From Eledone cirrhosa (lineage: Eukaryota): a stretch of DNA of 64,000 nt. Below the pieces are notes generated by a model. It did not search any database. It was not told the origin of the DNA and saw nothing but the letters and a program-made list of their open reading frames with translations. The stretch spans positions 78,368,001 through 78,432,000 of the forward strand of contig OZ024746.1 in assembly GCA_964016885.1 (NCBI GenBank), in the 5' to 3' direction. Shown one piece after another: positions 34,450 through 63,716 of this stretch. The translations under genes and the position numbers were made by a program. Each line of letters begins with the position of its first letter. The stretch's first letter is position 1.

Positions 34450-35362
34450 ATGCCTCTTTTCAAAACAATCCAAATAAAGACAAAGAATCTTAAATTCTCC
34501 AGTAAGCATTTCATTCTATTGGATAAAACTAACAACCTTTACGAACTCAATCCTACCACTGCCAAGATAAGTCAATACAATCTAAATATAAGAAAGCCAA
34601 CCCTCACCACATGTAATTCTATTAACAATGAGGCTAAATATATCACCACTACCATGAAGATCAAAAATAGACTACAATGCCTAGCAAAGAGGTGAGGCGA
34701 ATGTAACACTTAAAGACCATAAGGATGACTTCATGATTAACCTGGCATGTAGACTCATTAACTCAGAATTAGATCTAGTCAGTAAGAACCTACTTCGAAA
34801 CTTAAATAGGAATATTAATAAACATTGTAAGCTTAACCAATGGGAAAATATCCAAGTGGTGCTAGATTGATTTATCTCCCTTAAATACATGGATAGAGCC
34901 AGATTCACTCAATTTGATATTCTGGACTTTTACCGATTGATATCAAGTGACTTACTAAATAAGGCTCTAGACTTTGCCGGTAGATTTAGCAATATACATG
35001 ACTTGGACTAACAGGTAATAGCCTCACTGCTGTAAAACCCTCTTCTTCAACCAGTGGGGAGGCCTGGGTAAAGAAACCTGTAACAAATGACTGTTTGATG
35101 TTTCTATAGGTTCATTTGTCAGTGCAGATATTTTCATAAACAACAGAGCCCCAAAGTATATGGATGTTCTTGTAAAAAGCCTGAGTCATGCCTGCTGGAT
35201 CAACAATGCAACACTCCAGCGATAATACACAAATCAATACCACCAAAAGGAATCCTGGAAATACGTTGGTATGTCAAAGAGAAAGTTTAAAAATGGCTTC
35301 CTTAATCATGAAATGACCTTCAGATACCTAAATAAAAGAAACACCATAAATTTGGCGAATAT
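34450..35362 (+). pseudogene. Decayed Penelope-like element (Naiad-like): RT N-terminal half joined by deletion to GIY-YIG
   Basis: Manual translation across frameshifts: DKTNNLY, INNEAK, VTLKDHKDDF, CRLIN, NQWEN, FTQFDILDFY, AWVKK, FDVSIGSF, then CSCKKPESCLL and YVGMSKRKFK..NHEMTF. Confidence 0.85.
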
Positions 35363-58395: not shown

Positions 58396-58398
<3 letters not shown>

Positions 58399-58564
58399 TA
58401 TCCCAGGTTCAATCAGGGGTAACCACAGTATGTAAGGTACTCAATAGCAGAGTATAAATATTTAATATAGAAATGGCTTCTATAGGACTAGAACTGTTTA
58501 ATTCGAGAGAAATCATGATGATTTCTCATGAATGAAACAGTTCTAGTTCTGTAGAAGCCATTTC

Positions 58565-58570
<6 letters not shown>
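58396..58570 (-). mobile_element. Hairpin element family B copy 2
   Basis: Imperfect 53 bp arms 58464-58516 / 58518-58570; + arm reads GATGA-tttctcatgaat-GAAACAG-ttctagtt-CTGTA; tail homologous to 38546-38614. Confidence 0.8.
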
Positions 58571-58606
<36 letters not shown>

Positions 58607-58608
<2 letters not shown>

Positions 58609-58670
58609 CGAAGGAAGTGTGGTAAGGAACCAGATGGACCATAACGCACCAGAGTACTCAATACTTAAGG
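58607..58670 (-). mobile_element. Family A tail (copy 5) fused to the 5' truncation point of the Penelope-like ORF
   Basis: aacgaaggaagtgtggtaaggaaccagatggaccataacgcaccagagtactcaatacttaagg runs directly into the IYHDD codons. Confidence 0.85.
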
Positions 58671-60016
58671 ATTTATCATGATGATGCTCTCTTTACTATC
58701 TCTAATTGTAACAATGTAAACTTTAATATAATTAAGAAAAATATACTTGATCTATTTAAGCATCTTAACTTAAAATTGAATTCGAGAATAATGATAAACT
58801 AGCAAAGTTCCTTGATATATCCCTTAATCTAGATACCGGCCTATATTACCCATATCATAAGGATAACGAGAACTTAAATGACGTTAACTTTAAATCTAAC
58901 CACCCTAATAACGTTAAAACTGCTATAGTCAAAAGTGTAGAAAAAAGAATTTCTAATTTATCCTCTAATAACGATATCTTCGAAGCTAATACCAACTATT
59001 ATAATAATGCGCTATCTAGGGCTGGATATATAGACAAAATTAGGTATACTAAAGAACTTAATCTTGGCAGAGCTTATAATAACTCTAGTAATGTAGCTAG
59101 TAATAATCATACCACTAACAAAAGGAGGAGACCTAGATATAAAAAATATCCTTTGGTACAACGTTCCCTTCTCTCTTTCCATTATTAATAATAACACTAA
59201 ATTATTTTTTAGGGCATTACATAACAGCTTCCCTCCTTCACATATATATATAGCAAGATTTTCAATAGGCATACTATTAAATTCTCGTATTCTACTACTT
59301 CGAACATTTCTAAAATTATCTCAAGACATAATTCTAAAATATTAAATAATAACTCATATGCATCCAACTATGAGAGTCATAATAATAACGCTAAAAGGCC
59401 CGACGTCAATCTAAACTCTAGGCAAAATAACACAAGTATAAATACGACGTCAAACGTAACTTTGAGGAATGCATCAAATAGTAATGTAAATCTGGAAACT
59501 TTAGCACCTCCTTTAGTTAATTCCACCACTCCAGTTCCTAATATAATTAATTCTGGGCCACTTGCAAATAACTCTGTAAATAATCTTAATCGTAAATGCA
59601 ACTGCCCTATTAGAATTGTCCTCTTAGTAATTTCTGTCTCGATAAAAACCTAGTATACGAATGTAAAGTGGTAACTAGTACCAATACCTATACCTACATT
59701 GGCTCTACTTCTACCTCTTTTAAAGCAAGATTCTATAATCATTCTTCTACATTTAAATCTCCACTTAAAAGGACCAGCACCGCACTCTTATTTGGTCCTT
59801 AAAGACAAAAACATAAATTACGAAATTTCTTGGCGTAAAATCTACAACGCATCTCCATACTCCAATGCTTCCATATCTAGTGTTTGTAATTTATGTCTAG
59901 TTGAAAAATTTACCATTATCTCGAATTTCAACACAATAATAAATCGAAGAACTGATTTATTTGGACTTTGTAATCATAAATCCTACAAGACCTTTCACAA
60001 AGCTGATGGCCTATAA
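58671..60016 (+). pseudogene. 5'-truncated, frameshifted Penelope-like ORF (Naiad-like): RT C-half, thumb, Zn-linker and GIY-YIG endonuclease
   Basis: IYHDD (58671-58685), KFLDISLNL, KSNHP, RISNLSS, ILWYNVPFS, KIFNRHTIKFSYS, CNC..CPL..CL, LVYECKV..YIGST..FKARFYNH, CNLCLVEK, INRRTD..CNH. Confidence 0.92.
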
Positions 60017-60727
60017 CATATTCCACGAGTCACGGTTATCTTTACACATCTTTCATTATATTCTACAATGTATTAATTTGGTTTTCTCATCATATATTAA
60101 GCCTTTGATCTTTTTTTCTGTAGCCTTAGATTTTCGCTCAAACCTTCGTAGATTTTGTAAACAAATTATGACGTCATATGTTTATAAATTATTCTAGCAA
60201 TTTCCTTTAATTACTTGTTGATATAAAATAAAATTAAATAGTATACCCCACATATATACATTTTTACTAGAAATTATTAATTTTGACATAGACTATTTTT
60301 ATTTTTATTTTATTTTATAAAAATCTTTTTTTTATATTTATTTTATTTTATTAATACATTTTTACACTTCTTAATCCAATTTTTAGTATTTAAACCCAAT
60401 ATAAAATAATATACCCAGTTTCTATATTTAGACCTCTAATATTTGAATACCTTCTATAATATTCGCACATACACCTCATCAATTTACTTTTTAACCGTTA
60501 TTTACAGCTGTTTTCATTTTGACAGCATTCCTGATCAAAAGTCTCTCTCTCTCTCTCTTCTTTTTTTTCCTTTCTTCTTTATCTTTTTCCTTTTTCTCCT
60601 TTTCTTTCCTTTTCTTCTATTTTCCTATCTATTTCTTACTATAGTATTAACACTTATATTTCTGTCATATGTAGACTTAGCACTTTCCTGTAAACAAGTG
60701 CTATTATGCCTCATATCATGTTACCTT

Positions 60728-60795
60728 ATTTTATCTGATGAGAACACAATTTTTGTCCCAGGATGATTTTGTATTCAAAATGCACATAATAAAAT
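60728..60795 (+). ncRNA. Type I hammerhead ribozyme in the 3' pLTR of the Penelope-like element (GAAA mutated to AAAA); element ends ~60838
   Basis: Stem I attttat/ataaaat is perfect; CTGATGA 60735-60741; stem II gaacacaa/ttgtattc; short stem III with loop gcac; AUA site at 60786-60788. Confidence 0.8.
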
Positions 60796-60835
60796 ATATG
60801 GAACTCTTTTAACCATCTTTTAATTTCTTCTCTAT

Positions 60836-60903
<68 letters not shown>

Positions 60904-60919
60904 TATTTAGGTTCATATA

Positions 60920-61106
60920 AGGGGCGGTGGATTGGCAGTATCGGTAGAGGGTCGGACGCCATGCTTTCCAGCATAGTTACGTCCCTTTACGATCTGAGTT
61001 CAAATCCCGCCGAGGTTGACTTTGCCTTTCATCCTTACGGATTTGATAAAATAAAGTACCAGTAATGCACTGGGTGATTGCTGGCCTTGTGCCTAAAGTA
61101 GAAACA
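60920..61106 (+). mobile_element. SINE family 1, young full-length copy
   Basis: A and B boxes; 18 bp TSD attatttaggttcatata at 60902-60919 and 61107-61124. Confidence 0.95.
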
Positions 61107-61273
61107 ATTATTTAGGTTCATATATATATATACTTAGAAGAAAATTAGCATACACAATACAGATAATGTATGAGTTTGATATTCATTTATAATTCAAAAC
61201 TTACCAATTTACAATGTCATTCTTATGACTTTGTATTTGATTTAGTAGCAACAGATTTGTTTCATACACAGAG

Positions 61274-63679: not shown

Positions 63680-63716
63680 GTTTTAACGTTTCAAACACTA
63701 GTCCTTCATCAGAAGA
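63680..63716 (-). ncRNA. Minimal hammerhead-like motif
   Basis: Minus strand CTGATGA aggactagtgttt GAAACGTTA, with palindromic AACGTT; stem I is weak; degenerate sister at 26768-26797 (+). Confidence 0.5.

What the first reader, a model, noticed from the sequence alone, without database searches (positions are those of the whole stretch)
58607..60838. Chimeric insertion: family A tail fused head-to-head to a Penelope-like ORF that has a different pLTR
Seen: 64 bp of antisense family A tail joins directly to the RT at the YHDD motif. The element's own 3' end carries an unrelated hammerhead (60728-60795), and both outer ends abut TA-rich microsatellite. Inference: the two target strands were primed on two different RNAs, which would identify this Naiad-like RT as the trans-mobiliser of family A. 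The alternative is a later deletion joining two neighbouring insertions.
Basis: partly seen in the sequence, partly recalled or inferred. Interest (0 to 1): 0.7.

Follow-up and report, generated by a model that had tools for sequence, protein, structure and literature searches.

The report
Two Penelope families fused head-to-head
This is one insertion made of the end-piece of one jumping gene joined backwards to a shortened copy of a different one; each family has its own copying enzyme, so neither is shown to carry the other, and the join likely formed when both were copied into the two sides of the same DNA cut.

Summary
The junction is real: 64 bp of antisense family A tail (58607-58670) joins a 5'-truncated Penelope-like element ('P') at a 2-bp overlap, and both outer ends sit in TA runs. 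Two inferences fail. P is Hydra clade, not Naiad (C-terminal endonuclease, DKT, CxCX5C). Family A is no orphan: it is the end repeat of its own Hydra element ('PLE-A', 39% identical to P), contiguous with that ORF in 19 of 29 long copies. The A|P joint is a one-off: 0 of 174 other A tails join P, and 1 of 76 other P 5' ends joins an (older) A, which shared TA targeting predicts. A also joins four other Penelope families. Priming on two different RNAs stays the leading mechanism (about 50%): both parts are equally young, the piece sits where P's own short antisense tail often sits, and the ends follow the one-tailed/one-tail-less rule (13 of 14 normal P insertions). Sequential insertion with deletion is close behind and likely explains one similar composite. 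No empty site could be seen. Earlier scan notes described twin-primed Penelope ends in this genome; cross-family joints were not found in them.

The parts
58572..58606 (.). (TA)n target run at the left end
58607..58670 (-). Family A tail: first 64 nt copied from the tail-bearing start site of the PLE-A end repeat, antisense; no fold-back arm
   Evidence: 0 differences from the commonest related haplotype
58669..58670 (.). 2-bp GG overlap shared by A and P at the joint
58669..60838 (+). 5'-truncated Hydra-clade Penelope-like element P (about 1.2 kb of its 5' part missing), ending at its tail-less end
58671..60016 (+). Broken ORF remnant: RT from IYHDD, thumb, Asn-rich linker, CxCX5C motif (about 59598-59625, disrupted), C-terminal GIY-YIG endonuclease; several frameshifts
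60728..60795 (+). Type I hammerhead motif of P (core CTGATGA 60735-60741; GAAA changed to AAAA at 60777-60780), predicted inactive in this copy
60836..60900 (.). TA then (TG)n run at the right end
58396..58571 (-). Neighbour, separate insertion: family B tail plus fold-back in the same mixed TA/TG array

Best explanation
The locus is a composite of two different Hydra-clade Penelope-like elements, each with its own ORF, and was likely made in one event by priming the two strands of one cut TA run on two different RNAs. Shown: A is the end repeat of PLE-A; P is a separate family; the joint has a 2-bp overlap; both outer ends are native start sites. Inferred: a PLE endonuclease cut both strands; one 3' end was extended about 2.2 kb on P RNA from P's tail-less site, the other 64 nt on PLE-A RNA from its tail site; the two cDNAs annealed at GG/CC and were filled in. 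It would be a rare accident among families that share TA targets, not a standing A-P partnership. Which protein copied the A piece is unknown; PLE-A's own is the simpler guess.
For: A runs into its own RT-endonuclease ORF in 19 of 29 long copies; L153 has A on both sides, the tail reading into the ORF start. P often carries its own short antisense tail (44-110 nt) in exactly this slot: L011, L019, L100, L101, L119, L147, L163. In 13 of 14 two-ended P insertions one end is tailed and the other tail-less; the composite keeps this across families. Ages match: P has 5 private substitutions in 1347 sites (0.4%; others median 1.1%) and the A piece 0 in 62, whereas only 11 of 70 A tails not picked by an A search are that clean. 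Other antisense-only composites are also age-matched: A|Neptune-type L283 (0 of 136 vs 0.3%), D|P L120, E|P L103. A purified PLE protein cuts and extends both strands from two start sites (PMC11167929, first part of main text read); antisense LINE-1 chimeras are ascribed to twin priming (PMC13174262, passages).
Against: No enrichment: about 17 of 76 P 5' ends join unrelated DNA and A makes 4-5% of what lies beside TA runs, so one A is expected (P 0.48-0.58). Because most A copies are inverted repeats, a deletion into one also leaves an antisense tail at TA, so orientation is not diagnostic. L031 (A|Q) has a direct head-to-head joint with unequal ages (0 of 105 vs 1.9-4%), and L367 shows A, a TA run and a Q 5' end side by side: sequential routes exist. 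L283's second composite (A|B) has two tailed ends, against the rule. The strict end pairing may mean normal insertions use one RNA. The private-substitution measure is biased low for the query copy. The 2-bp overlap fits every model.
Confidence: 0.5

Rival explanations
1. Sequential insertion with target deletion. P landed in the TA run beside an existing A fold-back and its 5' end joined inside A, removing about 130 bp; or, less often, A landed beside P and its 5' end joined inside P.
For: About a fifth of P 5' ends join unrelated DNA. A is about 1.7% of random DNA and 17 of 338 complex TA flanks. L031 has unequal ages and L367 is the TA-separated intermediate. No excess of A at P ends.
Against: A pre-existing A would be mutation-free only about 1 time in 6. 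End pairing would be right about half the time. The whole hairpin of A must be removed.
Confidence: 0.38
2. Two separate neighbouring insertions, later joined by a microhomology-mediated deletion.
For: 2-bp overlap; Penelope ends crowd around TA runs (132 of 338 complex flanks fall in recurrent families); this P copy has other small deletions.
Against: Needs three events within a short time, since both parts are young, and must reproduce the normal tail/tail-less layout by chance.
Confidence: 0.07
3. P is the enzyme that mobilises family A in trans.
For: The joint exists; a P relative (74% nucleotide identity) is joined in tandem to an A 3' end at L058.
Against: A has its own ORF-bearing parent, including inverted ORF arms in short-A subfamilies (L052, L194, L253). 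0 of 174 other A tails join P (upper bound about 2%). A joins four other families, one from another clade. PMC3846280 (passage) found no cross-mobilisation between PLE types in a rotifer.
Confidence: 0.04

Closest known systems
Hydra clade of Penelope-like elements, e.g. Hydra-1_Obim (Craig et al. 2021, PMC8557442; passages and supplement alignment read)
   Same: C-terminal GIY-YIG, DKT, CxCX5C linker, no CCHH, CxxC and CxH around the conserved E and N, hammerhead, (TA)n targets; RT motifs match by eye
   Different: P and PLE-A are other families than Hydra-1_Obim (three probes gave 0 hits in the supplement) and their units are 3.2-3.5 kb rather than under 3 kb
Canonical PLE insertion with an inverted 5'-truncated pLTR and a one-sided tail (PMC8557442; PMC3846280 passages; PMC11167929)
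   Same: Both 3' ends face outward; one end carries the tail, the other does not
   Different: Here the inverted end comes from a different family; tails are about 80 nt, not 30-40
Antisense LINE-1 chimeras ascribed to twin priming (PMC13174262, passages)
   Same: Foreign RNA piece in opposite orientation at the 5' end of a truncated retroelement
   Different: LINE-1 cases are proven by target-site duplications and orthologous timing; TA runs hide duplications here, and the partner is another autonomous element starting at its own start site
Non-LTR retrozymes as non-autonomous PLE derivatives (bioRxiv 10.64898/2026.07.22.740005, parts 1-2 of 5 read)
   Same: Short, abundant hammerhead-region copies related to pLTRs
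   Different: Family A copies are truncated ends of a coding element, not tandem non-coding units

Membership tests
Naiad (P) | N-terminal GIY-YIG endonuclease | tested here: not met
   Endonuclease follows RT and linker
Naiad (P) | No canonical hammerhead | tested here: not met
   CTGANGA...GAAA conserved in the family end
Naiad (P) | DKA motif | tested here: not met
   DKT in P and PLE-A
Hydra (P and PLE-A) | C-terminal endonuclease, single ORF | tested here: met
Hydra (P and PLE-A) | DKT motif | tested here: met
Hydra (P and PLE-A) | CxCX5C linker | tested here: met
Hydra (P and PLE-A) | CCHH absent; CxxC and CxH beside conserved E and N | tested here: met
   translations
Hydra (P and PLE-A) | RWK motif | tested here: inconclusive
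   RWI in P, RWR in PLE-A at that place
Hydra (P and PLE-A) | Hammerhead and (TA)n insertion | tested here: met
   PLE-A core is the variant CTGAGAA
Hydra (P and PLE-A) | Placement in an RT tree with reference clades | not tested
   Reference proteins were only read in the supplement
Non-autonomous PLE derivative or retrozyme (family A) | No coding parent carrying the same end | tested here: not met
   19 of 29 long copies run into an RT-endonuclease ORF
Twin-primed chimeric insertion | Two parts in opposite orientation, each starting at a native start site | tested here: met
Twin-primed chimeric insertion | Parts of equal age | tested here: inconclusive
   Compatible (0 of 62 vs 0.2-1.2%), but 62 nt give little power
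Twin-primed chimeric insertion | One target-site duplication around both parts | not testable with these tools
   Both flanks are TA runs
Twin-primed chimeric insertion | Empty orthologous site | not testable with these tools
   No relatives held; contigs break at the microsatellites

The most novel reading that the evidence does not exclude
The two ends of a Penelope insertion are primed by two separate RNA-protein particles, so a few percent of insertions pair different families, even different clades (Hydra with Neptune). These cross-family chimeras would show that the inverted pLTR comes from twin priming on two RNAs, not fold-back, and give Penelope elements a way to swap ends.
Probability: 0.33. 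Interest if true: 0.62.

Novelty: new variant of a known kind. Interest (0 to 1): 0.33.

Why it matters
How Penelope-like elements make their inverted ends and one-sided tail is unsettled (self-priming was proposed in PMC3846280; two-strand extension was shown in vitro in PMC11167929). Cross-family composites are natural markers of whether the two ends come from one RNA or two, and this genome has enough of them (4 of 174 A tails, 4 of 76 P 5' ends) for a genome-wide test. The single locus does not identify a mobilising enzyme for family A, which has its own.

Tried and rejected
Read support: no contig or read of X3, X4, X7, X8 bridged the joint, and 58677-58720 had no cover at 97% likeness, although X3/X4 hold unique flanks without differences. 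This could mean a polymorphic insertion, but a hole proves nothing; not used. The empty site could not be seen: contigs break at the microsatellites. Rfam and Pfam gave nothing useful. One A-tail search returned no candidates because its words are too common. Dating A by its fold-back arms was discarded: the self-alignment counted loops. Searches merged or misfiled some A loci; one search replaces them. I first read P as Neptune-like and dropped that after the motif test. R's age at L033 (0.9% private) was inconclusive. Protein search gave unnamed relatives only. The multiple protein alignment failed on coordinates. Three of four paper searches aimed at PLE chimeras or octopus PLEs and one word search of earlier findings showed no report of cross-family head-to-head PLE joints; most papers were seen only as listings, and bioRxiv supplements were closed.

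Full report
Observation. The stretch reads: (TA)n 58572-58606, 64 nt of antisense family A tail, a 5'-truncated Penelope-like element P (58669-60838), then TA and TG runs. The A piece matches four other window copies and is identical to several genomic copies. The joint has a 2-bp GG overlap. None of the 39 other best P matches carries the A piece. P's hammerhead is conserved in the family, but this copy has lost the G of GAAA.

What P is. [quoted passage not shown] The motifs DKT, CxCX5C, CxxC..E and N..CxH, and the lack of CCHH, are those that Craig et al. list for the Hydra clade; Naiads have an N-terminal endonuclease and lack canonical hammerheads (PMC8557442, passages; supplement alignment). 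An earlier scan note gave me the Hydra lead. No tree was built.

What family A is. Following A upstream gives a 1.3-kb non-coding stretch that continues into an RT-endonuclease ORF in 19 of 29 long copies (30 loci, one duplicate dropped). [quoted passage not shown] This parent, PLE-A, is also Hydra-type and 39% identical to P over 319 residues. A ends fall at two sites, with or without the tail, like the two start sites shown in vitro for another PLE (PMC11167929). Short A copies are therefore truncated ends of PLE-A, about 1e5 by a 400-kb random sample (14 clusters). They need no outside enzyme.

Does the joint recur? From P's side: 79 merged loci, the window and two edge cases set aside, leave 76. 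Automatic classes were own inverted piece 28, microsatellite 17, full or tandem 5, other 24, A antisense 1, A sense across a TA run 1. By hand, about 17 join unrelated DNA; four are antisense ends of other TA-targeting families (L134 older A, L120, L103, L020). A is 3.8% of non-microsatellite bases within 200 bp of TA runs and 17 of 338 complex TA flanks, so one A among 17 is expected. From A's side: of 175 tails (four identity-ranked searches, random DNA and bystanders; long-A and P loci left out) only the window joins P. Four join other families head to head: Q (L031), R (L033), a Neptune-type element (L283) and B (L283, second copy); one A 3' end runs in tandem into a P relative (L058). In 87 further N, Q and R loci no direct A joint was seen, though not every 5' end was in view. 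So there is no A-P partnership. These are samples of top hits, not a genome-wide count.

One event or two? For one event: seven P copies carry their own 44-110 nt antisense piece in the same slot. In 13 of 14 two-ended P insertions one end is tailed and the other is not (two of the 14 have DNA between the parts), and the composite keeps this: tailed A, tail-less P. P is among the youngest copies (5 private substitutions in 1347 sites; 0.2-0.5% in three matched sets; 1.2% from its closest copies) and A has none in 62 nt, against 11 of 70 for unselected tails. L283, L120 and L103 are also age-matched. Against: counts show no excess; A copies are mostly inverted repeats, so a deletion into one mimics the layout; L031 has unequal ages; L367 shows the TA-separated intermediate; the A|B case has two tails. 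My weights are rough: two-RNA twin priming 0.5, sequential insertion with deletion 0.38, later deletion 0.07.

Mechanism, steps marked. Shown here: two native outer ends in TA, opposite orientation, 2-bp overlap, separate coding parents. From the literature: a PLE protein cuts and extends both strands; opposite-orientation LINE-1 chimeras are ascribed to twin priming. Inferred: both strands cut in one TA run, each extended on a different RNA, cDNAs annealed at the overlap, gap filled. Not shown: which protein copied which RNA, and the state of the site before insertion; read data did not bridge the joint.

Novelty. The parts are ordinary Hydra-clade elements with the known inverted-end layout, and earlier scan notes already describe twin-primed ends here. 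The cross-family form was not found in my searches and recurs at a few percent with many partners. It is a variant of a known layout and a handle on an open mechanistic question, but this locus alone does not settle it.

Noticed in passing
L283:1501-3066 (G000:C21): A antisense (140 nt) joined to a young Neptune-type element with an open frame from just before YVDD to the end of the endonuclease; both parts young. Best cross-clade chimera candidate.
   Followed up: partly
L058 / L157 (G000:C2:974500-982500): A 1.3-kb A 3' end runs in tandem straight into the RT of a P relative, starting at A's native tail site; template jump or insertion at that element's 5' edge.
   Followed up: partly
L061-L090: PLE-A hammerhead has the variant core CTGAGAA (16 of 23 matches) and a long stem II; activity untested.
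   Followed up: partly
P loci: One tailed and one tail-less end in 13 of 14 two-ended insertions.
   Followed up: yes
L339: About 85 nt of another TA-abutting family joined antisense to the 5' end of a Neptune-type copy.
   Followed up: no
window 58638-58771 in runs X1 versus X3/X4: Summed contig depth over the A tail is about 1000-fold lower in organism A than in organism C while P is similar; may mean a recent A expansion, but this depth is no copy number.
   Followed up: no
window 34600-35300: Old, decayed Hydra-type RT fragment.
   Followed up: no
window 13618, 44785, 63689-63712 (-), 63930: Further hammerhead-core motifs, likely ends of other Penelope families.
   Followed up: no
window 60903-61125: SINE-like element with an apparent 16-bp target duplication right of the composite.
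   Followed up: no
L082-L089: A PLE-A subfamily with an internal tandem duplication of about 207 bp in the 3' UTR.
   Followed up: no
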